In this document: positions 2,926 to 47,133 of the stretch, one piece after another | Layout of the letters: every line of letters begins with the position of its first letter | Numbering within the stretch: the stretch's first letter is position 1 | Origin: a virus | Taxonomy: Duplodnaviria; Caudoviricetes | IMG/VR virus record: IMGVR_UViG_3300048558_000101 | Coordinates: 1 to 58,217 of that record | Length of the DNA: 58,217 bases | Direction: 5' to 3' (one strand) | Translations under genes and position numbers: made by a program | Notes under the pieces: model-generated | What the model saw: the letters and a program-made list of their open reading frames with translations, nothing else | Database searches by the model: none | Told to the model about the DNA's origin: nothing

Positions 2926-2935
2926 ACCGTCCCCC

Positions 2936-8089: not shown

Positions 8090-8162
8090 AGCGGCGTGGA
8101 GAAATAGGCATCTCGCAAGCCTCATTAGCTTGAGACTTCGGGTTCGAATCCCGACGCCGCAA
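8090..8162 (+). tRNA. tRNA with CAT anticodon, initiator (fMet)-like, no encoded CCA
   Basis: Cloverleaf: acceptor GCGGCG/CGCCGC with A1:A72 mismatch; D stem GAGA/TCTC; anticodon arm CAAGC-CTCATTA-GCTTG; T arm TCGGG-TTCGAAT-CCCGA. Confidence 0.88.
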
Positions 8163-8283
8163 TTATGGGATGCGGTCAGACCGTATAACGGTGGACTGTT
8201 GGCGGGGGAGGTCATGAACGAAACCGTCGGCATAAGTCGTGAAAGTGGCTGCTGCGAAAGCGTCACCATCCCACCGTTTCGAT

Positions 8284-10411: not shown

Positions 10412-10994
10412 ACCGCGCCGCGTTCGCACTGATCGCGAGAAAGCGCTTGCGTCCCTGATAGCAAAGGCCTGGATTGCCACCGGGCGCAACTTGCCAACCA
10501 GTGATGAGCAATTGTCGCTGGTCGTCGCGGCCTATGCGGAAGCCTTAGTAGAGATTCCCAACGATGAACTGGCCGCAGCCTTCAAGGCCGGGATTGCGCT
10601 GCACAGGGAAAGCACATCAGCGCCCTTCAACCCGGAATTCGTGATGGAAGGCTGGGGTGAATACCGCCGGGCAAAGCGCCACGATGAAGAGAGGGAGCGC
10701 CGGAAAAACGAGTTACTCAATCCTGGAGTTTTCAAGTGCGAGTTTTGCGAAGACTCAGGATTCCAGAAAGTGCTGATCTGGTGCCCGACGCTTCAGAACT
10801 GGTTCGGCAGGATGCGCGGTTGTAAATGCGAAGCGGCGCCGGTTGCGGCCCGGCACGAAACCATTCCGTGCCCGCCGACCTGGAAAAAGGGAAAGCAGGA
10901 TTACTGGGAACCTGTTGGTCACAACGGATTGAAGTGCCACTGCGCCCACTGCACGAACGGTTACCACCAGGTAAAGCATCAAGGGGTCATGTGA
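10332..10994 (+). CDS. Putative helicase loader-like protein with C-terminal Cys/Zn motifs
   Basis: Follows the initiator; helical N-terminus; CEFC, CKC and CHCAHC motifs. Confidence 0.6.
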   Translation: MDKFTGDIQTLAVEELKLSEAISRGSKPRRVRTDREKALASLIAKAWIATGRNLPTSDEQLSLVVAAYAEALVEIPNDELAAAFKAGIALHRESTSAPFNPEFVMEGWGEYRRAKRHDEERERRKNELLNPGVFKCEFCEDSGFQKVLIWCPTLQNWFGRMRGCKCEAAPVAARHETIPCPPTWKKGKQDYWEPVGHNGLKCHCAHCTNGYHQVKHQGVM

Positions 10995-16051: not shown

Positions 16052-17506
16052 ATGACCAACTGGACAATCAACAATCAGGACGTGATGGAGTGGGTGGCAC
16101 AGTACCAAGGCGAACCGTTTCACGCGCTATTGTGCGATCCGCCCTATCACCTGACAGGCCAGCACCGGCGATTGATGGGCCGCGATGGGCAGCATCGCGA
16201 GCGTAACGGCAAAGGCTTCATGGGCAAAGCATGGGATGGCGGCGACATAGCTTTCCGTCCCGAAACCTGGGCGGCGCTCGCGCAGCATCTGCATCCTGGC
16301 GCTTTTCTGATGGCTTTCGCCGCCAGTCGCGGCTGGCATCGTCAGGCCACCGCGATGGAAGACGCCGGGCTGATCATCCATCCCACGATTTGGCGCTACA
16401 CCACCGACCAGGGCGAAACCTTTTACTTCGATTCACTGGAAGGGTTCGAAAACTTCATCGCCACAGCAGCGGCTGATCCTGGCGTGCTGCAGGAACGGCA
16501 GCTTGGGCCTTTAGGCTTTGCCTTTGGCAGTGGATTTCCCAAAGGCGCGCGCGTGCAGCGTGACGGCGCGCCTCACATTGATTTCACTGGCCATCGCTAT
16601 GGATTGCAGACGATGAAACCGGCGGTCGAGCCAATCATTCTGGCGCAGAAGCCATTTGAAAGGCGACCCTTTGATGACATTACCCGCACGGGCGCGGGCG
16701 CGCTCTTCATTGACGCCGGGCGCGTCGGTGACAGCGGCGGCACGAAGGCCAGTCATCAGGGTGAGTTTAAGTACCAAGGCATCCCCGGACAGGTTCACGC
16801 CACCAGAGGCTACCGCACCGGCCATCAAGTCGAAGAGATTGATGACGGGCGCTGGCCAGCCAACCTAATCCTGGAAGACGGAGCAGCGGCAGCGCTTGAT
16901 GCACAGACTGGCATCCTCACCAGCGGCAAGCCTGTGGGCGTTAGGAAAACGGGTAACCGTACCGTCTATCGAGCTGACCCTACGCGCATCGGCACCCCCA
17001 TTACCGGCTACGGCGACAGCGGCGGCGCATCACGCTTCTTTTTCAAAGTAGCCGAGCAGATAGACTTGGCTGACCCGCTCTATTACTGCGCCAAGGCATC
17101 GCAGGAAGAGCGCAACGCGGGACTGGATCATCTGCCCAAACGCCAGAAGGTCTATAACGGACAGTCCGGCCAATCGGCAGGCCTCGCGCCTGGTAGTGTG
17201 GAAGACAAGTTCACCACGCAGCCCGCCGCCAACTCTCACCCGACGGTCAAGCCGCTCGGCCTGACCAAGTATCTGGCAACACTTCTATTGCCGCCGTCAG
17301 CCTACGCGCCGCGCCGAATTCTGATCCCGTTCGCCGGCGTGATGAGTGAAGCCATTGGGGCCATGAAAGCCGGTTGGGATGAGATCGTGGCGGTAGAGCG
17401 AGAGGCTGAGTACGTGACGATCGGGAAAGCCCGAATGCGTTACTGGCAACTGAAATTTGAAGGTTCGCTGTTCGCCAATCTGGACAGCAAGAAGGAGATC
17501 GCATGA
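16052..17506 (+). CDS. N6-adenine/N4-cytosine DNA methyltransferase, beta class
   Basis: DPPY at N-terminus; GRWPAN; HPTVKP; degenerate PFAG motif I at C-terminus. Confidence 0.88.
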   Translation: MTNWTINNQDVMEWVAQYQGEPFHALLCDPPYHLTGQHRRLMGRDGQHRERNGKGFMGKAWDGGDIAFRPETWAALAQHLHPGAFLMAFAASRGWHRQATAMEDAGLIIHPTIWRYTTDQGETFYFDSLEGFENFIATAAADPGVLQERQLGPLGFAFGSGFPKGARVQRDGAPHIDFTGHRYGLQTMKPAVEPIILAQKPFERRPFDDITRTGAGALFIDAGRVGDSGGTKASHQGEFKYQGIPGQVHATRGYRTGHQVEEIDDGRWPANLILEDGAAAALDAQTGILTSGKPVGVRKTGNRTVYRADPTRIGTPITGYGDSGGASRFFFKVAEQIDLADPLYYCAKASQEERNAGLDHLPKRQKVYNGQSGQSAGLAPGSVEDKFTTQPAANSHPTVKPLGLTKYLATLLLPPSAYAPRRILIPFAGVMSEAIGAMKAGWDEIVAVEREAEYVTIGKARMRYWQLKFEGSLFANLDSKKEIA

Positions 17507-26784: not shown

Positions 26785-28902
26785 ATGGGTGTTTACCGCA
26801 ATCAAACCAGCGGGGCAAGGCCGAAGAGGCCTTCTGCTGCCATTATTAACCCGCCTGCGCCGCAAACTATGGCGGTGGACGGTGCCGTCGCGCCATCAGG
26901 CCAGGCGCTTAAGAGCGGAAGCAAGATCGCGTCAGGCGCGATGAACGCCGCGGGGGCGCTGGCAAAACAGATTAGCCGCGCTTTTGTCGGTACCGTCACC
27001 ACCGCCGCCCTGCTGCTCAAGGCGGCCCAAAAGGCCGCATCCGGCGTTCTCACTCCGTCCGCCACGATCCTGACGCTACGGACATACTTTCGTGCCCTGT
27101 CAGGTACCCTGATGCCTGTCGGGGCGCTGGCCAAGTCGCTCGCCCGCGTACTGTCGGGCGCGGTGACGTCCGTCGGGACTGCCGCTAAACAACATGGCAA
27201 GGCGGCATCTGGCAACATTACGCCATCGGCAACACTCGCGACCCTAAGAAGCTATTTCCGGTCGTTGGTCGGCGCTCTCACGCCGTCAGGGGCGCTCACG
27301 CGCGCCATATCCAAACTGCTGAGTGGCTCACTGACGTCAGCCGGATCGCTGGCCAAGTTCGCCGCCCGCCTGCTTTCCAGCGGCATTACGCCAGCAGGCG
27401 CTACGACAAAGCTCGCGGCAAAAATCGCCAGTGGTGCCACCACACCGTCTGCCACAATAGCCGCGATCAAGATATTCGTCCGGTCTCTGGTCGGTTCGAT
27501 CACGCCAACGGGCGGCCTGGTGCGGTCTGCGCTCAAATCTCTGACCAGCGCCGTTACTGCCGTCGGGGCGGTTGTGCGGGCGTCGGCGCGCTCGCTCACT
27601 GGCACCATAACGCCTGGTGGCTTGCTGGCCAAGCAGGCAGTCAAGCCCGCCGCTGGCTCGCTAACGCAATCCGCAACCATCGCAGCAATCAGTACCTATC
27701 TGCGGGCGCTGGCCGGGACCATCACGCCCACAGGCGCAATCGCGCGCGCCATCACCTATGCCAAGTCCTTGGTCAGTGCTGTGACGCCAGCCGGATCACT
27801 GGCCAAGTCTGCCGCCCGCTTTCTGGCCGGAACTGTAACCAGCGCAGGCGCGATCGCGCGCGGTCAGTTCCGGGCATTTGTCGGCGCTCTCACGCCATCA
27901 GGCAACCTGCTCCGTAGTTTAAGCAAATCTCTCGCGGGTGCGGTCACGTCGGCCGGTTCCATAGCTAGGCAGGTACGGAAACTGGCCGCAGGTGCATTCA
28001 CCCCGATGGGCGCGCTTCAGATTTTGGGAGGTCTGGTGCTGGTGCTGGCCGGGAGCGTGATGCCGTCAGGCGCGGTAATGCGTGTCACGTCCAAAGGGCT
28101 GGCGGCCTTGCTGGCTCTGGCGGGAACGACGCTTAAACAGGCAGTGAAGTCGCTGTTGGGATCTTCCGCGCCAAACGGCGCGCTGCTGCCTGTCAGGACA
28201 ATCGTGCGGCTCTTGTCCGGCGTTATCGCCCCAGCCGGATCGTTGGCCAAGCTCGCCTACAGACTGCTGAGCAGTACCGTTGCGGCGGCTGGCGTGCTGC
28301 TCAAGAGTTCGGCTCGCACGCTGTCTGGCTCAATCACTTCAGCCGGGGCATATGCCAAAGCAGTCGCGAAGTCTGCCGCATGCCTGCTGTCAGTATCGGG
28401 GGTGATGCAGGTGTTAAGCGGGCTTTCGCTGATCCTGTCCGGAACCATCATCCCTACAGGTGCGGCCACGCGCCAGGCGTCTCGTTTCCTTTCTGGTGCG
28501 GCAACGCTGGCGGGTACGACGGTGCGAGCGGCGGCCAAGAGCATGGTCAGCACGGTCTTGCCTGACGGCGCCATCACAACGCTGAAAATAATTTTCCGCG
28601 CTCTGCTAGGTTCGATCACCCCGTCAGGCAGTCGCGCACGCACAGTTCAAAAATTTATTGCAGGTTTCGCAGGCTTGTCGGGCGGTCTGGCCAAATCGGT
28701 CAGACGGTTTTTTGCAGGAATCATTTCAGGGGTCGGCGCGTTTGTCGGCCATCTGGTCAGCGGTTCAACGCAGCAGATCAGCGTCACGGTTAGCGAAAGT
28801 GCCTTGACGCGGGCCACTGCCGCAGAGGCCGAGCTTGTGACCGTCAACGCGGGCTGCGCGGCAGTCATGGTGGTCACGATCAACGAAGCGATAGGGGGAT
28901 AA
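26785..28902 (+). CDS. Repetitive fibre-like protein (about 34 repeats of 18/20 aa)
   Basis: Recurrent GxxTPxGxLxK/RxxxK/RxLx unit across about 620 aa. Confidence 0.75.
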   Translation: MGVYRNQTSGARPKRPSAAIINPPAPQTMAVDGAVAPSGQALKSGSKIASGAMNAAGALAKQISRAFVGTVTTAALLLKAAQKAASGVLTPSATILTLRTYFRALSGTLMPVGALAKSLARVLSGAVTSVGTAAKQHGKAASGNITPSATLATLRSYFRSLVGALTPSGALTRAISKLLSGSLTSAGSLAKFAARLLSSGITPAGATTKLAAKIASGATTPSATIAAIKIFVRSLVGSITPTGGLVRSALKSLTSAVTAVGAVVRASARSLTGTITPGGLLAKQAVKPAAGSLTQSATIAAISTYLRALAGTITPTGAIARAITYAKSLVSAVTPAGSLAKSAARFLAGTVTSAGAIARGQFRAFVGALTPSGNLLRSLSKSLAGAVTSAGSIARQVRKLAAGAFTPMGALQILGGLVLVLAGSVMPSGAVMRVTSKGLAALLALAGTTLKQAVKSLLGSSAPNGALLPVRTIVRLLSGVIAPAGSLAKLAYRLLSSTVAAAGVLLKSSARTLSGSITSAGAYAKAVAKSAACLLSVSGVMQVLSGLSLILSGTIIPTGAATRQASRFLSGAATLAGTTVRAAAKSMVSTVLPDGAITTLKIIFRALLGSITPSGSRARTVQKFIAGFAGLSGGLAKSVRRFFAGIISGVGAFVGHLVSGSTQQISVTVSESALTRATAAEAELVTVNAGCAAVMVVTINEAIGG

Positions 28903-30332: not shown

Positions 30333-30545
30333 ATGAGCAAAGATAAGCTTACTACCGGAGGCGAGGCGGCAGCATTGTTTAATGTCAGCGGGTCACGCAT
30401 TCGCCAGATCGCAATTGCCGCTGGCTTTGAACGTAAAGGTCGCGATTGGATATTTGACAGTGAACAACTGAAAGTAATTGAGGCGGGTACTCGCGCTGGC
30501 CAGGAAAAAGCGAAGAAGAGTCGCAAGAAGAAGGAGGGCAGGTGA
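30333..30545 (+). CDS. Small HTH (excisionase/MerR-like) regulator
   Basis: LTTGGEAAALFNVSGSRIRQI...GRDWIF. Confidence 0.75.
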   Translation: MSKDKLTTGGEAAALFNVSGSRIRQIAIAAGFERKGRDWIFDSEQLKVIEAGTRAGQEKAKKSRKKKEGR

Positions 30546-31111
30546 AAGACACTGACCGATACGTTTATGCCCTGCTTGATCCGCTGACCGAACAGGTGCG
30601 TTACATAGGAATCTCTGTGAATCCGTATCAAAGAATGAAGACACATGGGCACATTGACAGTTCCAACCGAAACACGAGTAAGCAGCAATGGTTCAGGTCT
30701 TTAAGGGCACGGAAGCTTTGGCCACGCGTTGTTATTCTTGAAATTGTCAACGAAAAGAACTGGCGCGAACGCGAAAAAGATTGGATTGCATTCTATCGTT
30801 CAATTGGCGCGTCACTGTTTAATATGGGGAATGGCGATAATCCTGTCGAGTACCGTAGGTGTCATATCGAATATCTCAGTCGCATTTCAAAAGAAAGAGA
30901 TCAGAAGGTAAGACTGATGCGGCTTCAGGAGCAAGCCAACGACTGGTTAAGGCGATGGAGACTCGTTACATTGGCAAACTGTAATATGCCAATTAAGGAT
31001 AAGCTGGAAATAGCAGAAGAGTTATTACATTCAAGACGGTTACGTCATGACCTGACTAAACAGGCATTCTTCAGCTTCTTTATTCCACAAAGACACAGCA
31101 CTGAGGCTTGA
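30542..31111 (+). CDS. GIY-YIG family nuclease
   Basis: YVYALLDP...RYIGIS...R...H...REKDWI...LFN. Confidence 0.8.
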   Translation: MKDTDRYVYALLDPLTEQVRYIGISVNPYQRMKTHGHIDSSNRNTSKQQWFRSLRARKLWPRVVILEIVNEKNWREREKDWIAFYRSIGASLFNMGNGDNPVEYRRCHIEYLSRISKERDQKVRLMRLQEQANDWLRRWRLVTLANCNMPIKDKLEIAEELLHSRRLRHDLTKQAFFSFFIPQRHSTEA

Positions 31112-31142
31112 AATCTTTTTTTATCCCGCTCAATTTTCTTGC

Positions 31143-31171
31143 TTGACTTCTAACGCTAGCGCAAGTAGTAT
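31143..31171 (+). promoter_or_regulatory. Sigma70 promoter of the MoxR operon
   Basis: TTGACT-17-TAGTAT preceded by a T-rich UP-like tract. Confidence 0.7.
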
Positions 31172-31201
31172 TTTCCTTGTCAGAGCAAGAAGGCAACTGA
31201 C

Positions 31202-31253
31202 CTGCCAATCGCCTGTGCCTGTGGGATTGGCAGTTAAACTAACAGGCTGGAGA
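31202..31253 (+). repeat. Hairpin/RBS element, copy 1
   Basis: CTGCCAATC-gcctgtgcctgtgg-GATTGGCAG then TAACAGGCTGGAGA. Confidence 0.85.
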
Positions 31254-31261
31254 TTTACAGC

Positions 31262-32284
31262 ATGAGACCCGCACAATTAACCAACTTCTTACAATCTGCC
31301 ATCAATGCAGGCCTGCCAGTTCTCGTTACTGGCGCGCCTGGTCTGGGAAAGAGCGCGCTCACAGAGGCCGCAGCAAGGGCCGCTGGCGCAGACTTCATCC
31401 TGTCGCATCCTGTGGTGTCAGATCCAACTGACGTTAAAGGGCTGCCATGGATTGCCAAAGACAAAGAGCATGCAACGTTCCTTCCCTTTGGTGAACTGGC
31501 GCAGGCAATGAAGGCCACCAAAAAAACAGTGTGGATGCTGGATGACTTGGGCCAAGCTTCGCCAGCAGTACAGGCCAGCTTTATGCAATTGCTACTGGCG
31601 CGTGAAGTCAATGGGCACAAGCTGCCTGATTACGTCACGTTTGTGGCCGCTACCAATCGCCGCACAGATCGCGCTGGCGTCCAAGGGATGCTGGAGCCAG
31701 TCAAATCCCGGTTTGCTTCCATTGTTGAGTTGGAAGTGAATTCTGATGATTGGTGCAATTGGGCAATCAATGCCCAGCTTCCAATTGAGCTAATTGGATT
31801 CATTCGCTTCCGCCCTGACCTGCTACACAATTTTCAGCCCAGCGCTGATTTGGTGAATTCGCCATCTCCGCGCACCTGGCACAATGCAGGCAAGCTTCTG
31901 CAATTGGGCATGCCGCCAGAGCTTGAATATCCCGCATTGGTGGGCGCAGTGGGAGAGGGTGCAGCCACAGAGTTACACGCGTTTTTGCGCATGTACCGCG
32001 ACATGCCCAGCCTGGATGCAATTTTGCTTGATCCTGACAAAGCGCCCATTCCATCTGAGCCATCCACGCAATACGCAGTCGCTACAGGCTTGGCGTCAAA
32101 AGTGAACCATTCCAACTTTGGCCGCATCGCCACCTATGCTGAGCGTTTGGAGCGCGCCAAGCTTGGTGAGTTCGCTGTGCTGTTGGTGCGCGACTGCATC
32201 CGCAGGGAGCCAAAGGTTACCGCCACAGCAGATTTCATTCGCCTGTCATCCACAGCGCTTGGCAAAATGTTTGTTGGCGCATAG
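31262..32284 (+). CDS. MoxR-like AAA+ ATPase
   Basis: Walker A GAPGLGKS; Walker B variant MLDDL; ATNR; SRF; SPRTW. Confidence 0.9.
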   Translation: MRPAQLTNFLQSAINAGLPVLVTGAPGLGKSALTEAAARAAGADFILSHPVVSDPTDVKGLPWIAKDKEHATFLPFGELAQAMKATKKTVWMLDDLGQASPAVQASFMQLLLAREVNGHKLPDYVTFVAATNRRTDRAGVQGMLEPVKSRFASIVELEVNSDDWCNWAINAQLPIELIGFIRFRPDLLHNFQPSADLVNSPSPRTWHNAGKLLQLGMPPELEYPALVGAVGEGAATELHAFLRMYRDMPSLDAILLDPDKAPIPSEPSTQYAVATGLASKVNHSNFGRIATYAERLERAKLGEFAVLLVRDCIRREPKVTATADFIRLSSTALGKMFVGA

Positions 32285-32302
32285 CGCGCCAGATCACGCA
32301 AT

Positions 32303-32354
32303 AAGGCCAGCGCCTGTGCCTGTGGGCTGGCCTTCAAATCTAACAGGCTGGAGA
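32303..32354 (+). repeat. Hairpin/RBS element, copy 2
   Basis: AAGGCCAGC-gcctgtgcctgtgg-GCTGGCCTT then TAACAGGCTGGAGA. Confidence 0.85.
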
Positions 32355-32360
32355 AAAATC

Positions 32361-33476
32361 ATGTCCAAGAAAGTAGAACACTCAAATCCCTATGCCAGCA
32401 TGGCCATGTTGGTCTCGGTTGGTTTCGCCAATTGGAGCGCGCGCAAATTTGACAAAGACGCGTCCGCAGAGATCACAGACAAGCATAACGTTGACAAAAA
32501 AGCTGTCCGCGCAAACAAAAAGCTTTTTTTGAAATCATCGCCAGAGCTTGAAGCTGTCAATTCAGCCATAAGCGCCGCACAGCAGACATATTATGATGAA
32601 ACGCTGCCTTGGTCTGATGATGGATGCCGCCTGCTGCCTTCCTCAAATTTCCTGGCCTTCTCAGAGGCAATGCGCTCGCACATCGCCAACATTGAAGAGC
32701 TGGCGCGCAAGTTTGCTGATAAATATCCGCAGTTGGTTGAAGAGGCCAAGGCTGATTTGAATAGCCTGTGGAAAGCTGAAGATTACCCGCCCGCGTCTGA
32801 GATCGCATCGCGTTTTGGTTGTGTGGTCAAAATCTATCCTGTGCCTATTGGCTCAGACTTCCGCGTCAATCTGGCCAAAGAGCATGTTGATTTGCTGAGA
32901 TCGCAGATCGATGAAGACACCGCGCAAGCAATTGAAGACGCGCGCCTGGAAGGGTTTGGCCTTCTGTTTGACGCCTTAACAGAAAGCGTTATTCCAAACC
33001 TGACAGCCAAAAACCCCAAACGCTCGATCAAAGACGTTTTGGTTGAAAATACGCTGGCAACCTGCGCCAGAGTCAAGCGTTTGAATATGACCAAGGATGC
33101 AAAGCTTGATGACATCGCTGGCCGCATCAAAACGCATGTGTGCTGCGTTGATGGCTCGACGTTGCGCAAAGATGAAGCCAAGCGCCTGGAAGTGGTCAAG
33201 GCTGCAGCACAGATCACGGCAGAGCTGGCCGCAGAGCTTGGAATTGACATGCCACAGGCAAAGGCCACCAAAGCGCCAGCATCTACGCCAGAAAGCGCGC
33301 CAAAGGCCCCCAAATCGCCAAAAGCCAGCAAGAAGCCGGCCAAGGCCACACCCAAAGCTCAAAAGGCCAGCAAGCCAGCGCCAAAGATCACCAAAGCGCC
33401 AGCAAACGCGCCTGTGGTCACGATGGCTGAAGTGGACGCCTTAGCAAGTAACTTTGCCGCAATGATGGGAATGTAA
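32361..33476 (+). CDS. DUF3150-like protein with Lys/Ala/Pro-rich histone-like tail
   Basis: WSARKFDK, TLPWSDDGCRLLP, DYP....IASRF; lies between MoxR and vWA genes. Confidence 0.7.
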   Translation: MSKKVEHSNPYASMAMLVSVGFANWSARKFDKDASAEITDKHNVDKKAVRANKKLFLKSSPELEAVNSAISAAQQTYYDETLPWSDDGCRLLPSSNFLAFSEAMRSHIANIEELARKFADKYPQLVEEAKADLNSLWKAEDYPPASEIASRFGCVVKIYPVPIGSDFRVNLAKEHVDLLRSQIDEDTAQAIEDARLEGFGLLFDALTESVIPNLTAKNPKRSIKDVLVENTLATCARVKRLNMTKDAKLDDIAGRIKTHVCCVDGSTLRKDEAKRLEVVKAAAQITAELAAELGIDMPQAKATKAPASTPESAPKAPKSPKASKKPAKATPKAQKASKPAPKITKAPANAPVVTMAEVDALASNFAAMMGM

Positions 33477-33500
33477 ACTTTGCCAACCTGGAGACACACC

Positions 33501-34652
33501 ATGAAAGCAGATCAGAAAATGAGGCAAGCGCGCACAGAGTTGATTCTGAGGCATCCATTTTTTGGAGCGCTCGCGCTGCGCCTGGCCTTGAAGGAAGACA
33601 CCACAATTGACACCGCTGGCACAGATGGCAAAACACTTGCCTATAACCCCAAGTTTATTGATGGTCTGACTGTTACACAGGCCACAGGCTTGGTGGCGCA
33701 TGAAGTTTTGCACGTGGCCAATGGCCATCCTTGGCGCAGGGATGGCCGCGATATGGAAACCTGGAATGCAGCCTGCGACTTTGCCATCAATGGCATTCTA
33801 AAGGCCGCTGGCTTTTACCTGCCTGAAGATGGATTCCATGATCCCGCCTTTGATGGCCAGAGCGCTGAAGCAATCTACACGCGCATCAAGCAAGACAAAC
33901 AGCCCGATGATGGCCAGCAAGGTCAGCAAGGCCAGAATCCTGGCCAAGATGGCCAAGGTAAAGGCCAGCAGGGTAAAGGCTGGGGCGATGTGATGGATGA
34001 TTTGACGCCAGAGGCCGCGCAGAATGAATCTGAAAACAAGATCGCAACCTTGCAGGCCGCAGCCGCAGCAAAGGCCGCTGGCAAGCTGCCCGCTGGCCTT
34101 GAACGCCTGATTGATGAGATCAAGCATCCTGCCATTGACTGGAAAGCCGCGCTGCGCCGCTTTGTACAGCAGACAGCCGCCGCAGACTATACGTGGCAGA
34201 CTCCAAACAGCAGATATTTGGCGTCTGGCCTATACCTTCCCGCGCTCAAGTCTGAGCAGATGCGCCCGCTGGTGGTGGGAGTTGATACGTCTGGAAGTGT
34301 GGGAGCAGAAGAGCTGGCCACCTTTGGCGCAGAGATCCAAGGGATTATGCAGGATTGCAGGCCAGAGGCTTTGACTGTGGTTTATTGTGATGCCGCAGTA
34401 AACAGGGTTGAAGACTTCGCGCCTGATGATGAGATCAAGCTTTCGCCTTGTGGCGGTGGTGGCACCTGCTTTGCGCCAGTCTTTGCTGAAGTTGAAGAGC
34501 GCAACCTGATGCCCGCATGCCTCGTGTACCTGACAGACATGGAAAATTATGACAAGCCAGTAGCGCCAGATTATCCCGTGTTATGGGTGAATGTAGGCCG
34601 CAGAGGCCGCCAAGCTCCATTTGGTGAGATCATAGATTTTCCGCAGAACTGA
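33501..34652 (+). CDS. Metallopeptidase (DUF2201-like) plus vWA domain protein
   Basis: HEVLH; WNAACDFAIN; MIDAS DTSGS...GGGT...LTD. Confidence 0.9.
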   Translation: MKADQKMRQARTELILRHPFFGALALRLALKEDTTIDTAGTDGKTLAYNPKFIDGLTVTQATGLVAHEVLHVANGHPWRRDGRDMETWNAACDFAINGILKAAGFYLPEDGFHDPAFDGQSAEAIYTRIKQDKQPDDGQQGQQGQNPGQDGQGKGQQGKGWGDVMDDLTPEAAQNESENKIATLQAAAAAKAAGKLPAGLERLIDEIKHPAIDWKAALRRFVQQTAAADYTWQTPNSRYLASGLYLPALKSEQMRPLVVGVDTSGSVGAEELATFGAEIQGIMQDCRPEALTVVYCDAAVNRVEDFAPDDEIKLSPCGGGGTCFAPVFAEVEERNLMPACLVYLTDMENYDKPVAPDYPVLWVNVGRRGRQAPFGEIIDFPQN

Positions 34653-34673
34653 AGGCCTGACAGATCAGGCCAT

Positions 34674-34732
34674 AAGCTGGCCAGCGCTCGCGCCTGTGGG
34701 CTGGCCAGCTTTCCAACATAACAGGCTGGAGA
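34674..34732 (+). repeat. Hairpin/RBS element, copy 3
   Basis: AAGCTGGCCAGC-gctcgcgcctgtgg-GCTGGCCAGCTT then TAACAGGCTGGAGA. Confidence 0.85.
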
Positions 34733-34739
34733 GATCGCA

Positions 34740-35048
34740 ATGCAAGTTCCCTCAAGTTTATTTCCTTCACGATCCCGCAGACAGCGCGCCAGAGCAGGAC
34801 AGCAAGGCCAGCAGAGCGCGCCACAGATCGCCAATTATGATTTGTGGTCAATTTGGGATTCTGCAATCGCGCCAGACTCTTTTGCGCCTGGTGAGGTAGT
34901 ACCCAAGGCCACCGTTGAAGAGCTGGTAATTGACCAAATCAGCGCCCAGCTTGGATCAGAGTACATGGCCGCCTGGAATGCCCTGGACGTCAAAGCACAG
35001 CGCTCTTTGCTTGATGCGGCATTCCCTACAGCAAATTATCTCGTATAA
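34740..35048 (+). CDS. Hypothetical protein
   Basis: Follows hairpin/RBS copy 3; shares the operon's sequence bias. Confidence 0.65.
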   Translation: MQVPSSLFPSRSRRQRARAGQQGQQSAPQIANYDLWSIWDSAIAPDSFAPGEVVPKATVEELVIDQISAQLGSEYMAAWNALDVKAQRSLLDAAFPTANYLV

Positions 35049-35102
35049 CGCGCCAGAACCGCGCTAAGGCTGGCCAATGCTCGCGCCTGTGATGGAGGCT
35101 TA

Positions 35103-35519
35103 ATGGTCCAACGCCAAAAGACAATTCTGGCCGCTGCGCTCACATTGCGCCGTCGGCTGGATCGAACTGAAGAGCCGGAAGGAATGATGAAATCCGGTGG
35201 TCTCTGGCAACCATCGCGCAATGAGAAACGGAAGTGTTGCGCAGAGATGATTCGACGGTATCGTCATCGCCCTTCCCATCTAATTGAACATTGCTGTTCC
35301 GCGACACACGCCGCAAATCTTCATGGGCTATTGGCAACAAAGGCCAATCTTTATCACATTCGACTGCTGGCGAGTTTCGCCAAGAACTTCTCGACCGATG
35401 TCTTGCGCCGAGTATGGCCCGCGCTGGAAGTCGCGTATCAGGCCCACCAAAGGCCTGTAAGTCCAGAAGAGGCACAGGCCATAGTAGAAGCTGCCGCACA
35501 GATGGAGACTCAATCATGA
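35103..35519 (+). CDS. Cys/His protein, paralogue of 37178
   Basis: AALT.R.R....PEG....G.W.PS..E...CC...HC.SA.H..NL.GL. Confidence 0.75.
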   Translation: MVQRQKTILAAALTLRRRLDRTEEPEGMMKSGGLWQPSRNEKRKCCAEMIRRYRHRPSHLIEHCCSATHAANLHGLLATKANLYHIRLLASFAKNFSTDVLRRVWPALEVAYQAHQRPVSPEEAQAIVEAAAQMETQS

Positions 35520-35875
35520 ATAGTAAACAGCGAAGACAGGCTAAGCGCTCAGCGTCCACAATGGGATTGAATGCGCTGCTGGCCGCTGGCGATTGGATCA
35601 GCTACAACACCCGCCCTGACCGACGAATGAAAGGTGGTGTACTGTCGCAGCACATCGCGCAGGAATACAAAATTTCCCGCCGCCAGCTTGACCAGGCCAT
35701 AGCAGACATTCGGGCAGGGTTGGCGCATCCATCAAAGACCTTTGTGAACGCGCGCGAATCAGCGGCGCGCCTGCACGACCGCCCCCTGACCGCCGAAGAG
35801 CTGCAAGGGATCGTGAGCGCCATTAAGAAGACAGAGGCCAAAAGACTTCAAAGCGTGGAGGCGATGACATGGTAA
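35516..35875 (+). CDS. AHPS-family paralogue 1
   Basis: GLAHPSKTF..ARESA.RL..RPLT.EELQGIV.AIK; ATGA overlap. Confidence 0.75.
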   Translation: MNSKQRRQAKRSASTMGLNALLAAGDWISYNTRPDRRMKGGVLSQHIAQEYKISRRQLDQAIADIRAGLAHPSKTFVNARESAARLHDRPLTAEELQGIVSAIKKTEAKRLQSVEAMTW

Positions 35876-42754: not shown

Positions 42755-43462
42755 ATGGCAATCTTTCCACCAGGGAAAACACCACCAGCAACAGCACCGC
42801 AGAGCGCGCAATCAAGCGCGCCGCAATCCCCTGCGTCCGCGCAATCCGCGCCGCAACCTGCACAAAAGGCTACCCCCAAGCCGTCAAGCTACGCTGGCCC
42901 AATTCCCCAAAATCTGCGCTGGCGTCCGACCGCCGAAGAAGCACTGGAAATCGAAGACCTGGCCTACACCGCGCTCGCGTCAGGCCTTCTTAAATCTCAG
43001 ATCAAAAAGCAATTACGAAAATACGCGGAGAAGAAACAGGCGGAACTCAACAAGGCAGGAAATGGCCTGATTGTGGTGATGGACGCGCGCACGATTGAAA
43101 AATATCTCTCTCGCGCGCGCGCGAGGATGGTGGATGAATCCGGCAAGACCGAGAAAGATCTGCGCACCGACAGCCTGAATTTCTACCTGTCCATTGCTCG
43201 TGACCAGACCGCTGACCACCGCAGCCGATTGATCGCACGCGAGCGGGTTGACCGGCTGTATGGGCTGGATAAGCCCATCAAGGTAGCCCCGACAACTCCT
43301 GATGGTGAACAATCTTTCAGAGCTTTGTCAGACGCTGACCTCACGGCCCGAATTGCTGAAATCGCTGCCAAGATCGGAGCAGGAGCAACTGCTGGCTCTG
43401 ATGGCGGAGTATCAGAACCGGGAACTGCTGAGACAGGCGACGCTGAAGATCGGGCTGGCTGA
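42755..43462 (+). CDS. Putative terminase small subunit
   Basis: Directly upstream of terL; HTH-like region; RLYGLDKP.KV...LSDADL C-terminus. Confidence 0.7.
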   Translation: MAIFPPGKTPPATAPQSAQSSAPQSPASAQSAPQPAQKATPKPSSYAGPIPQNLRWRPTAEEALEIEDLAYTALASGLLKSQIKKQLRKYAEKKQAELNKAGNGLIVVMDARTIEKYLSRARARMVDESGKTEKDLRTDSLNFYLSIARDQTADHRSRLIARERVDRLYGLDKPIKVAPTTPDGEQSFRALSDADLTARIAEIAAKIGAGATAGSDGGVSEPGTAETGDAEDRAG

Positions 43463-44813
43463 GTTTGTCGAACGGACAACCAACCACCGATTGGACACCT
43501 GGCAGCAAGACCTGTGCGCCAGACTGGAAACCCTGGCCTACACGAAACGCCGTCGGCTGCTGATCCACGCACCGCCGCAGATGGGCAAATCCATCATCGT
43601 GAGCCAGCGCTTTCCGGCTTGGCTCTTGACCCGTAAGCCATACCACCGCGTCAAGCTGGCCTGTTACAACGTCACGCACGCCACGCGTTTCGGGAAGATC
43701 GTGCGGGACCTGATGCAGGAAGACGACTTCGCCCGCCTGTTTCCTGATCCGTCGCTGCGCCTGCCGCGAATCTCTTCCGCCGATGAATGGTCAACACTGG
43801 CGCGCTCTTCGACCCGAGACAGCCAACCCAGTTTCAAAGCCCTTGGCCTCGCGACCGGATTTGTCGGTCAGGGCGTGGATACGTTGCTGATTGACGATCC
43901 ATACGCCGATCCAAAGGAGGCCTACAGCCCGGTCATCAACGCGAAGGTGCGCAGCTTCTGGACCGACACGGCGCGGCCCCGTCTGAATGACGACACCAAC
44001 GTCGTGGTGATGTTCCACCGGTATTGCGAGCCTGACTTGGCCGGATACCTGATGGAGACCGAGCCGGACGAATGGGAACTGATTCGCTATGCCGCACGCG
44101 CTGATGGTGATTACGAACACCCGACCACGCACCGCATTTACAAAGACCCTATGAGCCGCCCTATCGGAGAGCGGCTTTCCCCGCGTTACTCAGACGAATG
44201 GTTTGATCTCCAGGCCGCGAATGAATGGGTGTGGCTGAGCCAGTTCCAGGGCCGACCCACCGCCAAAGAAGGAAGCTTTTTCAAGGTTACGAAGCTGCAA
44301 TATTGCGAGCCGTCAGAAGTGCCTGACAACCTGCGCAAGATTCGTGCGTGGGATTTGGCCGCAAGCAAGAATGGTGATTGGACAGCCGGAGTGCTGATAG
44401 GCAAAGCCGACAACAGTCGCTATTACATTCTGGATGTGGTGCGGGGGCGCTGGTTGCCGGATGACCGTGACAAGGAAATGCTCGATACGGCCAACGCCGA
44501 CGGAAAAGGAGTGAAAATCCGCTTGGCGAAAGACCCGGCGCAGGCAGGTGTAGACCAAAAGCTGCGGCTGACGCGCCTGCTGGATGGCTACAGCGTTCGG
44601 TTCAAGCCGGTCAGTGGCGACAAAATCACCCGCGCTGAAGGTTTCGCATCAGCAATTAACAACGGCAATGTGACGATTGTTCGAAGCGTGTGGCAGCACC
44701 CATTCGTTGAAGAGTTGCGCCAGTTCCCGCTGGGCGGTTTTGACGATCAGGTGGACGCGGCTGTGGATGCCTACGATGAGTTGGCGGCGCGGCGCGTCAT
44801 TACGGCGGCCTGA
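43302..44813 (+). CDS. terL: Terminase large subunit
   Basis: PPQMGKS Walker A; LLIDDP Walker B; WDLA; DDQVDA nuclease motif; start uncertain. Confidence 0.92.
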   Translation: MVNNLSELCQTLTSRPELLKSLPRSEQEQLLALMAEYQNRELLRQATLKIGLAEFVERTTNHRLDTWQQDLCARLETLAYTKRRRLLIHAPPQMGKSIIVSQRFPAWLLTRKPYHRVKLACYNVTHATRFGKIVRDLMQEDDFARLFPDPSLRLPRISSADEWSTLARSSTRDSQPSFKALGLATGFVGQGVDTLLIDDPYADPKEAYSPVINAKVRSFWTDTARPRLNDDTNVVVMFHRYCEPDLAGYLMETEPDEWELIRYAARADGDYEHPTTHRIYKDPMSRPIGERLSPRYSDEWFDLQAANEWVWLSQFQGRPTAKEGSFFKVTKLQYCEPSEVPDNLRKIRAWDLAASKNGDWTAGVLIGKADNSRYYILDVVRGRWLPDDRDKEMLDTANADGKGVKIRLAKDPAQAGVDQKLRLTRLLDGYSVRFKPVSGDKITRAEGFASAINNGNVTIVRSVWQHPFVEELRQFPLGGFDDQVDAAVDAYDELAARRVITAA

Positions 44814-45000: not shown

Positions 45001-47133
45001 ATGGCACACAGCACAGAGAGCGACAAAAATTTTCTTCACAGACTGGGGGATGCGGTCAAAGCATTCCGGGTGCAATTCAGCGGCACCGGTACCGGCGGTC
45101 GTTCCAGCTACGTCCCAACACTGGATCAAATCTTTTCCATCTGGAATAGCGCATCTCGCCGAACCAGCATCAACTTTGCGCAGGAAGTCGGCGATCTCAC
45201 GCAATCCAGCCTGGTGATGGCGGTCGTGAACTGGGTAGGCCGCGCGCTCCCTGAAGCCATCGCGCGCGTGATGGAATCCGACAAAGAAGGAAAAGACTCG
45301 CCTGTCACCGATCATCCACTGGCCAAAATCCTCAAGCGCCCCAACCCGTATTACTCCGGCTCCACAATGGCGAAAGCCATTGCGCTCAATTGGGCGCTAA
45401 ATGGCAACGCCTACATCATCAAGCAGCGAAACGCGCTTGGCCAGGTCATTCAACTGTACAGCTATCCCTACTGGACTGTCCGGCCAGTGCGAGACGACAG
45501 CACGCAGCTCGTCAGCTATTACGAGGTCAACGTCAACGGAATCTGGCAGCGAGTGGACAGCGCGCAGGACATCACCGGGCGCGACAACCCGCTCGCGAAC
45601 GTCATCCACCTGCGCGATGGAATTGATCCCTACAACGACATGCTTGGCCTGTCTGGCCTGGGCTGCCTGCTGCGCGAAATCTTCACCGACAACGAAGCCG
45701 CATACTTCGGGGCCGTAATCATGAAAAACATGGGAATCATCCCCTATGTGGTTTCGCCTGCCGACAAAGATACCGATATTGACGCTGAGAAAGTGAAGGA
45801 AAGCCTGATCCGTCAGACCACCGGCGACCGGGCGAACGAACCGGCGGTCATCAACGGCTCGATCCGCGTGGATAAGCTCGGAATGACACCAGCCGAGATG
45901 GCGCTGGATGCGCTGCGAAATGTGCCGGAAGAGCGACTGGCGGGTGTGTTGGGTATTCCGGGCATGGTCGTTGGGTTTGGTTCGGCCTGGTCACGCTCGA
46001 CGTTCAGTAATTTCGCACAGGCCACCGAAGCGGCTTACGAAAATTACATGGTGCCGCTCTGGCGCTACCTGGACGAAGAGTTCACGCACCAGCTCCTGTT
46101 GCGCGACTTCGATCTGCCCGAGACAAACCGGCGCGTTGAACACGATCTGTCCAAGGTGCGCGCGCTGCAGGACGACGAAGACGCGCTGTACCGGCGCGTT
46201 GGCCTGGCGTACCAGCAGGGATGGATCACCCGGGGCGATGCGCGCGGAAAGACTGGTTTCAAAGTGGACGAAGAGCGCGACAACGTTTTTTTGAACCGCG
46301 TCGGCAATACATTCATTCCGGGCGATGATCCATCAGCGCAATTCCCAGAACCGATCTCGCCTGCCCGGCAGATCACAGATGGCGGCGCGCCACTGCTGGC
46401 GGACGGGAAAAATCCGCCGTCCAATCGCCGCTCGCTACCTGCACACCCTCAACCGCCCCAACTAGCCGCCGCGTCCGCTAACTCGGCAACAAAGGATTAT
46501 CGTGCAGGCCGATCTGCCTGTGCTGAATGCAATAATCTTTTCCTAAAAGGCGCAACGGACTGGAACTGTGGCCGGCACGCGCTCCCGATGGAGTACAGCG
46601 TTAAGCGTGTCGGCAAGTTCAAGTTTTCGTCAACTCAGATTGACCTGCCCCCAACAGTCGCGACCGCTATGTCGGAATTTGGCGCGAAGATTCCCAATGA
46701 CCAGTTGGGTGAAGACGGCAGGGAAGACGAACCCCATGTCACGATTCTTTATGGATTGCACACGAGCAACGCGGCCGACGTGGAGAAGGTACTGGCGGGC
46801 GAGTCGCCGGTGCGGTTGTCCTTTGGCCCCACCAGTTATTTCGAAGGCGAAGAGTTTGACGTTGTGTATGTTTCCGTAGAGAGCGAAGACCTGCGGGCAC
46901 TCAATCAGAACGTCAGCGATAATCTTGCCAACACCAACACTCATCCTGAGTACACGCCGCACGCGACAATTGCCTACGTCAAGCCTGGGCTTGGCCGTGA
47001 GTATGCGAACTTGGACATCTTCGAAGGACTGTACAGCGATGTGTCAGTTGTGGCCGATACCGTAACTTTCAGTGATCGGGGCGCGGAGAAGACCAGCATC
47101 CGGCTGAATCCCGCCAGACAGAGGATCGCATGA
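45001..47133 (+). CDS. HK97-family portal protein fused to a C-terminal 2H phosphoesterase (Acb1-like)
   Basis: HPL..IL.RPNPY, GNAY, VIHLR, GLS, TFSN portal motifs; C-terminal PHVTILYG (H579) and YTPHATIAY (H654). Confidence 0.88.
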   Translation: MAHSTESDKNFLHRLGDAVKAFRVQFSGTGTGGRSSYVPTLDQIFSIWNSASRRTSINFAQEVGDLTQSSLVMAVVNWVGRALPEAIARVMESDKEGKDSPVTDHPLAKILKRPNPYYSGSTMAKAIALNWALNGNAYIIKQRNALGQVIQLYSYPYWTVRPVRDDSTQLVSYYEVNVNGIWQRVDSAQDITGRDNPLANVIHLRDGIDPYNDMLGLSGLGCLLREIFTDNEAAYFGAVIMKNMGIIPYVVSPADKDTDIDAEKVKESLIRQTTGDRANEPAVINGSIRVDKLGMTPAEMALDALRNVPEERLAGVLGIPGMVVGFGSAWSRSTFSNFAQATEAAYENYMVPLWRYLDEEFTHQLLLRDFDLPETNRRVEHDLSKVRALQDDEDALYRRVGLAYQQGWITRGDARGKTGFKVDEERDNVFLNRVGNTFIPGDDPSAQFPEPISPARQITDGGAPLLADGKNPPSNRRSLPAHPQPPQLAAASANSATKDYRAGRSACAECNNLFLKGATDWNCGRHALPMEYSVKRVGKFKFSSTQIDLPPTVATAMSEFGAKIPNDQLGEDGREDEPHVTILYGLHTSNAADVEKVLAGESPVRLSFGPTSYFEGEEFDVVYVSVESEDLRALNQNVSDNLANTNTHPEYTPHATIAYVKPGLGREYANLDIFEGLYSDVSVVADTVTFSDRGAEKTSIRLNPARQRIA

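What the first reader, a model, noticed from the sequence alone, without database searches (positions are those of the whole stretch)
30872..35162. 4.3 kb operon with complete, strand-specific absence of CGRR
Seen (manual scan): no CGAA, CGAG, CGGA or CGGG occurs on the + strand between 30872 and 35162. CGRY is also scarce (about 20), while CGC is abundant and the reverse complement YYCG is common. Equal base frequencies would predict roughly 65-70 sites, and CGRR resumes immediately at 35163 and 35176. The gap holds in all codon frames and in intergenic DNA, so it is not simple Arg codon choice, and a palindromic restriction site would deplete both strands. Inference: selection acts on a single-stranded or oriented target. 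Options are (a) an mRNA endoribonuclease that this transcript must survive, (b) a bulky phage DNA modification at YYCG on the template strand that would stall RNA polymerase in an immediate-early operon, or (c) an orientation-dependent type III/ISP-like restriction system.
Basis: partly seen in the sequence, partly recalled or inferred. Interest (0 to 1): 0.8.

Follow-up and report, generated by a model that had tools for sequence, protein, structure and literature searches.

The report
Phage gene cassette purged of CGRR
A four-gene cassette in a temperate phage has lost every copy of the short word CG-purine-purine on its coding strand only, by silent codon choices, which suggests its messenger RNA (or that one DNA strand) must survive an unidentified enzyme that reads this word.

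Summary
On the + strand no CGRR occurs from 30868 to 35163 (4295 bp). The next-longest gap in the 58,217-bp genome is 380 bp. Among about 12,000 short patterns scanned, CGRR is the strongest outlier.

- **Extent.** The desert is really about 31040-35150. That is one cassette: MoxR-like AAA ATPase, divergent DUF3150 protein, metallopeptidase-vWA (DUF2201) protein and a 102-aa ORFan. The cassette also has its own repeated hairpin/RBS elements.
- **Not codon usage.** Synonymous shuffles that keep the proteins and the cassette's own codon usage expect 45.7 ± 4.8 CGRR (observed 0) and 60 CGRY (observed 17). The opposite orientation, YYCG, is normal at 37 vs 43.8.
- **Targeted.** Codon choice matches the rest of the phage except where a CGR would form. 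Conserved arginines are kept.
- **Cassette-specific.** Flanking genes are normal, and 80 homologous viral loci show nothing similar.

Best reading (about 0.4): selection on the sense transcript against a CGR(R)-reading single-strand RNA enzyme, either a nuclease or a modifier. The agent is unidentified. Type III-like restriction and template-strand modification are disfavoured. No close relatives could be fetched, and the tools for reads and encoding contigs were closed.

The parts
31040..35150 (+). CGR-depleted zone on the + strand: 0 CGRR and 17 CGRY inside the four CDS. The last dense-zone CGR is at 31037, and dense CGR resumes at 35154/35163.
30542..31111 (+). GIY-YIG endonuclease gene (189 aa) just upstream. 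GC about 0.44-0.49. CGRR content normal (9 observed, 7.0 expected). Not part of the desert.
31143..31171 (+). Sigma-70-like promoter candidate TTGACT-17-TAGTAT (9 of 12 matches). Weak: 3 such sites in the 7-kb scan against 4.0 expected in shuffles.
31202..31253 (+). Intergenic element copy 1: hairpin with a GCCUGUGCCUGUGG loop, then TAACAGGCTGGAGA (Shine-Dalgarno box) ahead of the ATG at 31262.
31262..32284 (+). MoxR-like AAA+ ATPase (340 aa; Pfam AAA_5, AAA). CGRR 0 observed vs 12.1 expected, z -5.2.
32303..32354 (+). Intergenic element copy 2: hairpin with a different stem but the same loop, plus an identical 13-mer box, ahead of the ATG at 32361.
32361..33476 (+). 371-aa protein. Divergent DUF3150-like N-terminal part plus a Lys/Ala/Pro-rich tail. 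CGRR 0 vs 18.4, z -6.1.
33501..34652 (+). DUF2201_N putative metallopeptidase (HEVLH) fused to a DUF2201 vWA-like domain (DTSGS), 383 aa. CGRR 0 vs 11.9, z -4.8.
34674..34732 (+). Intergenic element copy 3: 12-bp-stem hairpin (fold z -3.06 for the segment) plus an identical 13-mer box, ahead of the ATG at 34740.
34740..35048 (+). 102-aa ORFan. In 5.8 billion proteins the only hit is itself. CGRR 0 vs 2.3.
35054..35091 (+). Partial fourth copy of the hairpin element, without the 13-mer box. Probable right-hand junction of the cassette. The next gene (35103-35519) has normal CGRR (5 vs 5.9).

Best explanation
The cassette (about 31.04-35.15 kb) has been purged, by natural selection acting almost entirely on synonymous sites and on intergenic bases, of the word CG-purine(-purine) in the sense orientation only. 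The most likely reason is that its transcript must work in the presence of a sequence-specific enzyme that acts on single-stranded RNA and reads CGR(R). The likeliest agent is an endoribonuclease of the toxin or defence type. An RNA-modifying toxin is the alternative. One hit would inactivate the message, so every site carries a cost. The hairpins after each cistron would shield the cistrons from 3' exonucleases that start at cuts in the downstream, CGRR-bearing RNA.

Shown: the desert, its strand specificity, its independence from codon usage and protein sequence, its graded specificity, and its exact coincidence with one cassette.

Inferred: that the level of selection is RNA; that the agent is a nuclease or modifier; and that the cassette (a MoxR/vWA-peptidase chaperone-like module) is needed while that agent is active, for example as a counter-defence.
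For: (1) Strand-specific, frame-independent loss. CGRR is 0 vs 45.7+/-4.8, with frame means of 1.0/21.1/23.6. YYCG is 37 vs 43.8.
(2) The loss is targeted. Two-fold NNY codons end in C in 2% of cases before GR in the cassette, against 57% elsewhere. Before A the figures are 74% vs 75% and before C 51% vs 57%. NCG before a purine is 3% vs 27%. The underlying codon usage is therefore the phage's own, with a CGR filter laid over it.
(3) Graded specificity, as expected of an enzyme. Observed/expected is 0 for CGRR, 0.14-0.40 for CGRY, 0.23-0.49 for CGTR, 1.1-1.4 for CGTY and 1.5-1.7 for CGCN.
(4) Non-coding cassette DNA obeys the rule too: 18 of 18 CG are CGC.
(5) Proteins are untouched. Of 12 alignment columns with >=50% Arg in 28 homologues, 9 are Arg here (CGC or AGR), 2 are Lys, 1 is Met and none is Gln or Trp.
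(6) The limits coincide with a unit that has its own repeated hairpin/RBS elements. The 13-mer occurs exactly 3 times, all in the cassette, and there is a promoter-like site at the left edge. Flanking genes are normal, with z +1.1 and -0.5.
(7) Precedents read in papers:
- MazF-expressing cells still translate engineered ACA-less transcripts, and M. tuberculosis PPE genes are poor in MazF-mt3/mt7 sites (PMC5408214, passages).
- MazF homologues with 2-3-nt motifs exist (PMC13107127, passages).
- A phage MoxR ATPase is needed to overcome a defence system (PMC13716836, passages).
Against: - No CGR(R)-specific RNase or RNA modifier is known to me or appeared in what I read. The review PMC5408214 has no occurrence of CGG or CGA.
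- None was found in the phage. PADLOC gave only a weak IetA-like hit (E 0.0046) for the ATPase, and Pfam/PHROGs scans of about 50 ORFs found no RNase toxin.
- The host is unknown.
- No terminator separates the cassette from downstream genes that carry CGRR, so the right-hand limit looks like a recombination junction rather than a transcript end.
- The promoter call is weak.
- Surviving CGRY sites are not more base-paired than other words in a local-folding model.
- Homologous cassettes in 80 viral loci show no CGRR desert. A scan of 69 loci for any short word found nothing of this size.
- No relatives closer than 65% protein identity exist in the searched database, so ongoing selection cannot be shown.
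Confidence: 0.4

Rival explanations
1. The agent acts on DNA rather than RNA. It would be an enzyme that reads CGR on the non-template (+) strand when that strand is single-stranded, in transcription bubbles, R-loops or replication intermediates. Candidates are a ssDNA deaminase, a ssDNA ADP-ribosyltransferase or a nickase. Sites are avoided because they are recurrent damage hot spots in a heavily transcribed unit.
For: It makes the same predictions on strand specificity, frame independence and inclusion of intergenic DNA. The replacements are mostly the transition products NNT and NCA.
Against: In-frame CGR arginine codons are also gone: 2 of 59, against 31% of Arg codons elsewhere. They were replaced through transversions to CGC or AGR, with conserved Arg kept. 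This is selection against the word, not a deamination footprint. Nothing shows that the cassette is more transcribed or more single-stranded than its neighbours.
Confidence: 0.15
2. The bias was acquired elsewhere. The cassette is a recent import, perhaps helped by the adjacent GIY-YIG homing endonuclease, from a phage in which this unit or the whole genome was under CGR selection. In the present genome it would be a fossil.
For: The limits fall at module junctions: the end of the GIY-YIG gene and a truncated fourth copy of the cassette's own intergenic repeat. The repeat elements occur nowhere else in the genome. There is no terminator at the right edge.
Against: In contexts that cannot form CGR, codon usage equals that of the rest of the phage. 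This fits long residence, or a donor from the same host pool. No donor was found: 0 DNA hits in the phage collection; 0 pattern hits in viral, genome and metagenome contigs; 80 homologous loci without the bias. This reading still needs the same unknown agent, so it moves the question rather than answering it.
Confidence: 0.2
3. A bulky modification at YYCG on the template strand would stall RNA polymerase, and this operon must be transcribed from modified DNA.
For: The phage encodes a large C-5 cytosine methyltransferase (753 aa, PF00145) and a second methyltransferase-like protein, so its DNA is probably modified at some cytosines.
Against: All other + strand genes keep CGRR at normal observed/expected ratios, with every z >= -3.0, including terminase, portal and capsid. 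5-methylcytosine is not known to block RNA polymerase (established knowledge). Nothing supports immediate-early status.
Confidence: 0.05
4. The cassette escapes an orientation-dependent type III or ISP-like restriction system.
For: Strand-biased site orientation is a known escape from type III enzymes. T7 has 36 EcoP15I sites, all in one orientation (PMC3874151, passages).
Against: That escape requires one orientation over the whole molecule. Here 971 + and 821 - sites coexist, and about 41 inverse-orientation sites lie inside the desert itself. A 3-4-nt degenerate recognition word is far shorter than any type III/ISP site I know of (recalled).
Confidence: 0.02
5. Artefact or non-natural sequence: assembly or base-calling error at a modified motif, or an engineered, recoded insert.
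For: The completeness of the purge is unusual for natural sequence.
Against: - The ORFs are intact and the proteins are conserved.
- The effect is local, and no known base-calling error pattern is confined to one cassette.
- The partial CGRY and CGTR depletion is graded.
- The intergenic repeats have diverged, with compensatory stem changes.
- Exactly these proteins are recorded on 4-5 contigs of the protein collection.
Together these point to a natural sequence.
Confidence: 0.05

Closest known systems
Transcripts free of a toxin's cleavage word (engineered ACA-less mRNAs in MazF-expressing E. coli; PPE genes of M. tuberculosis poor in MazF-mt3/mt7 sites)
   Same: A short word is absent or under-represented on the sense strand in all frames, so that a message survives a sequence-specific ssRNA endonuclease (PMC5408214, passages).
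   Different: ACA-less genes are man-made, and the PPE case is a statistical under-representation. Here a natural 4.1-kb, four-gene phage cassette is completely free of a degenerate 4-mer, and no cognate enzyme is known.
Strand bias of EcoP15I sites in phage T7 (escape from type III restriction)
   Same: Orientation-specific absence of a short asymmetric word in a phage (PMC3874151, passages).
   Different: In T7 the bias is genome-wide and concerns a 6-bp site. Here it is confined to one cassette, both orientations abound elsewhere, and the word is 3-4 nt.
Palindromic restriction-site avoidance in phage genomes
   Same: Motif loss through silent substitutions under selection by a sequence-specific nuclease (general knowledge, recalled).
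   Different: That avoidance is symmetric on both strands and genome-wide. Here the reverse-complement word is at the expected frequency, 37 vs 43.8.
CmdTAC defence (the CmdT ADP-ribosyltransferase modifies GA dinucleotides in ssRNA)
   Same: A bacterial defence enzyme that disables mRNAs through a very short word in single-stranded RNA (PMC11618068, abstract and passages).
   Different: The word is different (GA). No phage transcript purged of GA is reported in the passages I read. It is only a model for the kind of agent.
Phage MoxR AAA+ / metallopeptidase-vWA pairs
   Same: The gene content is the same: a MoxR ATPase plus a vWA protein with an N-terminal metallopeptidase. These were described in jumbo phages and proposed as an assembly chaperone (PMC7824862, passages). 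tblastn finds homologues in 514 and 555 phage records, all below 60% identity. The MoxR gene of Bas54 is an anti-defence gene (PMC13716836).
   Different: None of the 80 homologous loci examined has a CGRR desert. The function of the module is still untested in any phage of this kind.

Membership tests
MoxR-like AAA+ ATPase (Pfam AAA_5) | Profile match above the curated cut-off, with a P-loop | tested here: met
   AAA_5 at E 1.4e-07, 32 bits vs cut-off 22. GAPGLGKS is visible in the translation. 53% identity to the ATPase of L001.
DUF2201_N metallopeptidase + DUF2201 vWA-like protein | Both domains match. HExxH and a DxSxS-type MIDAS start are present. | tested here: met
   DUF2201_N at E 8.2e-63 and DUF2201 at E 1e-25. 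HEVLH and VDTSGS are seen in the translation and lie in invariant or near-invariant columns of 29 sequences.
DUF3150 | Pfam profile match above the cut-off | tested here: inconclusive
   The window protein has no Pfam hit at E<=1. Its homologue in L001 (28% identity, BLASTP 1e-45) scores 25.2 bits against a cut-off of 24.9.
Type III-restriction escape by site orientation (T7/EcoP15I type) | All copies of the asymmetric site in one orientation over the whole DNA molecule | tested here: not met
   971 sites on + and 821 on - in the genome. About 41 inverse sites lie inside the desert.
Palindromic restriction-site avoidance | The word is depleted equally on both strands | tested here: not met
   CGRR 0 vs 45.7, while YYCG is 37 vs 43.8.
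Nuclease-proof transcript (ACA-less type) | The word is absent from the sense strand in all three frames and in untranslated parts, beyond codon usage | tested here: met
Nuclease-proof transcript (ACA-less type) | A cognate enzyme with that specificity is present in the host or phage | not testable with these tools
   The host is unknown. No RNase toxin was found among about 50 phage ORFs scanned.
Known anti-phage defence systems (PADLOC) | Profile match of the cassette proteins | tested here: not met
   7 proteins were scanned. The only hit was a weak IetA match at E 0.0046, with no matched stretch passing on its own.
GIY-YIG endonuclease (flanking gene) | GIY-YIG catalytic domain match | tested here: met
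   PF01541 at E 2.4e-06, 28.2 bits vs cut-off 22.6. Homing activity was not tested.

The most novel reading that the evidence does not exclude
A phage counter-defence (or otherwise indispensable) cassette has evolved into a natural 'nuclease-proof' operon. Every CGR(R) word was removed from its mRNA because the host, or a rival element, deploys an as yet undescribed mRNA-targeting effector that reads CG-purine-purine. The four forbidden words are exactly those that can pair with 5'-UUCG-3' if G.U wobble is allowed, so recognition by a short RNA guide or loop rather than by protein alone is not excluded. If true, motif deserts in phage cassettes would reveal both the specificity of unknown RNA-targeting immune enzymes and which phage genes must be expressed under their fire.
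Probability: 0.3. Interest if true: 0.9.

Novelty: new variant of a known kind. Interest (0 to 1): 0.8.

Why it matters
Motif avoidance is a classic footprint of the arms race between phages and sequence-specific nucleases. The known cases are genome-wide, and either symmetric (type II sites) or a matter of site orientation (type III). This footprint is complete, confined to one cassette and one strand, and concerns a 3-4-nt word. That points to an RNA-level or single-strand-level agent with a specificity not described in what I could search.

It gives a direct, testable prediction: an enzyme that reads CGR(R). It also singles out the widespread but functionally obscure MoxR/DUF3150/peptidase-vWA module as something this phage must express under attack. 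The same scan could be run on other phage genomes to discover toxin specificities and anti-defence operons from sequence alone.

Tried and rejected
- **Chance or multiple testing.** Rejected.
- **Arginine codon choice, or codon usage in general.** Rejected by synonymous shuffles and the context table.
- **Foreign base composition.** Rejected, because codon usage in neutral contexts equals that of the rest of the phage.
- **Deamination-type hypermutation.** Rejected, because in-frame CGR is also gone and conserved Arg is kept: 9 of 12 columns are Arg and none is Gln or Trp.
- **Selection for hidden stop codons (TGA excess, 98 vs 62.5).** Rejected as the cause. It cannot explain the loss of CGG or of NCG before purines.
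- **General avoidance of template-strand dipyrimidines (UV idea).** Rejected. AA, AG and GA are near expectation.
- **A conserved property of the module.** Rejected. None of 80 homologous viral loci has a comparable CGRR or YYCG gap; the largest normalised gap is 12.7, against 71.6 here.
- **Any-word desert scan.** 69 of 82 loci were scanned, with 13 shorter than 8 kb left out. The maxima were 47.5 (YGY, 661 bp) and 38.8 (TTTY, 1652 bp), short compositional tracts and nothing like 4 kb.
- **RNA accessibility of the 17 surviving CGRY sites.** Not different from CGCN, UGRR or YYCG. Only the comparison with CARR gave p=0.026. Inconclusive and low-powered.
- **Rfam.** No match in 30400-35700 at E<=1.
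- **PADLOC.** Nothing convincing.
- **A phage tRNA for CGR codons.** Only one tRNA-Met gene was found.
- **Relatives.**
  - blastn against phages gave 0 hits for the cassette and 2 short weak hits for the structural region.
  - Single-protein locus searches found no relatives.
  - The terminase search found only 23%-identity hits.
  - The intergenic-element pattern gave 0 hits in viral, genome and metagenome contigs.
- **Supplements.** Paper supplements were not consulted. They may list MazF or toxin motifs that I did not see.

Full report
**What the window is.** The window is the whole record held for this genome: one contig of 58,217 bp. It is a temperate tailed phage or prophage.
- Genes identified:
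  - integrase at 1-1188 (-);
  - ImmA/IrrE-like peptidase and an HTH repressor;
  - UmuC-like polymerase and a replication initiator;
  - a 753-aa C-5 cytosine methyltransferase and a second methyltransferase-like protein;
  - a beta clamp and an endolysin-like glycoside hydrolase;
  - large terminase (43302-44813), portal and major head protein.
- No close relative exists in the collections I could reach.
  - blastn of the cassette against 50,697 phage records gave no match.
  - The structural region gave two short 68-71% matches.
  - The terminase found only 23%-identity loci.

**The observation.** It is confirmed.
- There are 971 CGRR on the + strand. The gap 30868->35163 is 4295 bp and the next longest gap is 380 bp. 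The same word on the other strand (YYCG) has no gap above 519 bp.
- In 1-kb windows, CGA+CGG falls from about 30-50 per kb to 2, 3, 9 and 2 between 31001 and 35000. CGC stays high.
- At the genome's own density the gap has a Poisson probability of 7.7e-32. Given the 22 surviving CGR, the chance that none is followed by a purine is 3.8e-6.
- I scanned all 3-, 4- and 5-letter words, including R/Y/S/W/K/M degenerate ones. CGRR has the largest normalised gap (71.6). Every value above about 28 is a CGR-related word in the same place, and unrelated words reach at most 27.6. The word was therefore not cherry-picked.

**Where it lies.**
- Left edge. The 3' part of the GIY-YIG gene still holds four CGRY in 240 nt. 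That gene as a whole has normal CGRR (9 vs 7.0 expected).
- Right edge. Dense CGR resumes at 35154-35256, inside the next gene, which is also normal at 5 vs 5.9.
- The depleted unit is therefore about 31040-35150 and holds four genes:
  - a MoxR-like AAA+ ATPase (31262-32284; Pfam AAA_5);
  - a 371-aa protein (32361-33476);
  - a DUF2201_N metallopeptidase fused to a DUF2201 vWA-like domain (33501-34652);
  - a 102-aa ORFan (34740-35048).
- The 371-aa protein has no Pfam hit of its own at E<=1. It is homologous to the middle gene of the same triad in locus L001 (28% identity, E 1e-45), and that protein just passes the DUF3150 cut-off.
- Three of the four genes are preceded by a cassette-specific element.
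  - It is a 9-12-bp hairpin whose stems differ between copies but whose loop, GCCUGUG(CCUGUG)GG, is kept.
  - About 14-16 nt further on lies the identical 13-mer AACAGGCTGGAGA, 6-8 nt before the ATG.
  - The 13-mer occurs exactly three times in the genome, all in the cassette.
- A truncated fourth copy lies at 35054-35091, at the right edge.
- A sigma-70-like site (TTGACT-17-TAGTAT, 31143-31171) lies at the left edge. Such matches are not more frequent here than in shuffles.

**Is it codon usage?** No.
- I kept the four protein sequences and the cassette's own codon frequencies and shuffled synonymous codons 5000 times:

| Word | Expected | Observed |
|---|---|---|
| CGRR | 45.7 +/- 4.8 (minimum 29) | 0 |
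| CGRY | 60.0 +/- 5.8 | 17 |
| YYCG | 43.8 +/- 4.2 | 37 |

- By frame the CGRR expectation is 1.0, 21.1 and 23.6, so the loss lies mainly at codon junctions.
- With the codon usage of the rest of the genome the expectation is 76.4 +/- 6.4.
- Gene by gene, the four cassette genes have z = -5.2, -6.1, -4.8 and -2.0. Every other gene of the genome lies between -3.0 and +1.1.

**How the loss was achieved.**

| Codon class and context | Cassette | Rest of genome |
|---|---|---|
| NNY ending in C, before A | 74% | 75% |
| NNY ending in C, before C | 51% | 57% |
| NNY ending in C, before GY | 49% | 64% |
| NNY ending in C, before GR | 2% | 57% |
| NCN ending in G, before a purine | 3% | 27% |
| NCN ending in G, before C | 71% | 58% |

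- NCG before a purine is replaced mainly by NCA (40% vs 22%).
- Arginine is coded CGC (66%) or AGR (24%). CGA and CGG occur once each among 59 Arg codons, against 31% of Arg codons elsewhere.
- The cassette thus has the phage's normal codon habits with one filter laid over them: no CG followed by a purine.
- The filter is graded:

| Word | Observed/expected |
|---|---|
| CGRR | 0 |
| CGGC | 0.14 |
| CGAC | 0.30 |
| CGAT | 0.39 |
| CGGT | 0.40 |
| CGTA | 0.23 |
| CGTG | 0.49 |
| CGTY | 1.1-1.4 |
| CGCN | 1.5-1.7 |

- The 391 nt of intergenic cassette DNA hold 18 CG, all followed by C. In non-coding DNA elsewhere 37% of CG are CGC. The repeats make these sites partly non-independent.
- The proteins were not sacrificed. 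In the alignment of the vWA protein with 28 homologues, 12 columns have at least 50% Arg. Here 9 of them are Arg (CGC, AGG or AGA), 2 are Lys, 1 is Met and none is Gln, Trp or a stop.

**What this excludes.**
- A one-step mutational footprint such as cytosine deamination on one strand is excluded. It could not remove in-frame CGR or NCG-purine without changing the proteins. Several kinds of substitution were used, which is the mark of selection against the word.
- A foreign base composition is excluded by the context table.
- A palindromic restriction site is excluded by the strand asymmetry.
- A type III-like mechanism is excluded. That escape needs a single orientation over the whole molecule, as in T7 with its 36 EcoP15I sites (PMC3874151, passages). 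Here both orientations abound.
- A template-strand modification that blocks RNA polymerase would hit all the other + strand genes, and they keep CGRR at normal levels.

**Is it a property of the module?** No.
- The triad is widespread. tblastn finds the vWA protein in 514 phage records and the ATPase in 555, all below 60% identity.
- The nearest proteins among 5.8 billion are 65% identical.
- I fetched 80 viral loci with homologues at 35-51% identity. None has a CGRR or YYCG gap with a normalised length above 12.7.
- A scan for a desert of any short word in the 69 loci of at least 8 kb found only short compositional tracts.
- The desert is therefore specific to this lineage.

**Most likely mechanism.** This is inference.
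- The selected object is the sense strand of one expression unit, most simply its mRNA.
- A sequence-specific agent acting on single-stranded RNA would impose a cost on every site, in every frame and in untranslated parts. It would ignore the reverse complement, and it would show graded tolerance of near-cognate words. All of this is seen.
- Such agents exist.
  - MazF-type toxins can have 2-7-nt motifs (PMC13107127 and PMC5408214, passages).
  - The defence toxin CmdT disables mRNAs at GA dinucleotides (PMC11618068).
  - Messages without the word stay translatable in toxin-expressing cells: ACA-less transcripts, in the same review.
- A phage MoxR ATPase has been found to be required against a defence system (PMC13716836). 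The same MoxR/peptidase-vWA pair has alternatively been proposed as an assembly chaperone (PMC7824862).
- My reading is that the phage needs this cassette while a CGR(R)-reading enzyme is active. The hairpin after each cistron would shelter it from exonucleases entering from cuts in the unprotected downstream RNA.
- I put this at about 0.4.

**Weak points.**
- No enzyme with this specificity is known to me or was found in the papers I searched.
- None was found in the phage.
- The host is unknown.
- The right edge looks like a recombination junction rather than a transcript end.
- Surviving CGRY sites are not predicted to be more base-paired than other words.
- Without close relatives I cannot show that selection is still acting here rather than in a former genome.

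**A curiosity.** CGAA, CGAG, CGGA and CGGG are exactly the four words that pair with 5'-UUCG-3' if G.U wobble is allowed. This may hint at recognition through an RNA. It may equally be plain purine recognition by a protein.

- I could therefore not look at raw reads, RNA data or the other contigs that encode identical proteins.
- Paper supplements were not available.

Noticed in passing
window 45001-47133 (+): The portal protein (Phage_portal, residues 72-417) carries a C-terminal 2H-phosphoesterase domain. Residues 574-665 match 2_5_RNA_ligase2 at E 8.9e-14, with a weaker sub-threshold match to anti-CBASS Acb1 (E 7.4e-05, 22.9 bits, below the 27-bit cut-off). This may be a virion-delivered nuclease that degrades cyclic-nucleotide signals (PHROGs 'RNA ligase').
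   Followed up: partly
window 10826-13087 (+) and 16052-17506 (+): A 753-aa C-5 cytosine DNA methyltransferase, matched in three stretches with a long variable part and possibly multispecific, and a second 484-aa methyltransferase-like protein (PHROGs only). Their targets are unknown.
   Followed up: partly
window 30542-31111 (+): A GIY-YIG endonuclease gene in a low-GC stretch (about 0.44-0.49, against about 0.55 for the genome) sits directly upstream of the cassette. It is a candidate homing endonuclease that may have moved or co-converted the cassette.
   Followed up: partly
window 31202-31253, 32303-32354, 34674-34732, 35054-35091: A cassette-specific intergenic hairpin element. The loop GCCUGUG(CCUGUG)GG is conserved and the stems carry compensatory changes. 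There is no Rfam match, and no exact pattern match in viral, genome or metagenome contigs.
   Followed up: partly
window 33250-33420 (C-terminal part of the 371-aa protein): A Lys/Ala/Pro-rich, histone-H1-like tail (KAPKSPKASKKPAKATPKAQKASKPAPK...) is appended to the DUF3150-like protein. It is absent from the 297-aa homologue in L001, and it suggests nucleic-acid binding.
   Followed up: no
window 26785-28902 (+): A 705-aa ORF with no Pfam or PHROGs family lies in a stretch of GC 0.63-0.65, well above the genome mean, with purine-word gaps (WRRR gap 27469-27920).
   Followed up: no
window 8089-8163 (+): A single tRNA-Met (CAT) gene in the early region. It overlaps an ORF that my crude gene caller placed on the - strand (7901-8269), which is probably spurious.
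   Followed up: no
window 1212-3021 (-) and 14946-16049 (+): The prophage carries a UmuC-like Y-family polymerase (IMS, IMS_C, DUF4113), an ImmA/IrrE-type peptidase and its own DNA polymerase III beta clamp.
   Followed up: no
L053 4952-9412; L028 8551-10203: Some homologous loci have long gaps of T-rich words on the + strand (YTTT 4460 bp in L053; TTTY 1652 bp in L028, next to or inside the module). These are probably compositional, and their normalised lengths (19.8 and 38.8) are far below the case studied.
   Followed up: no
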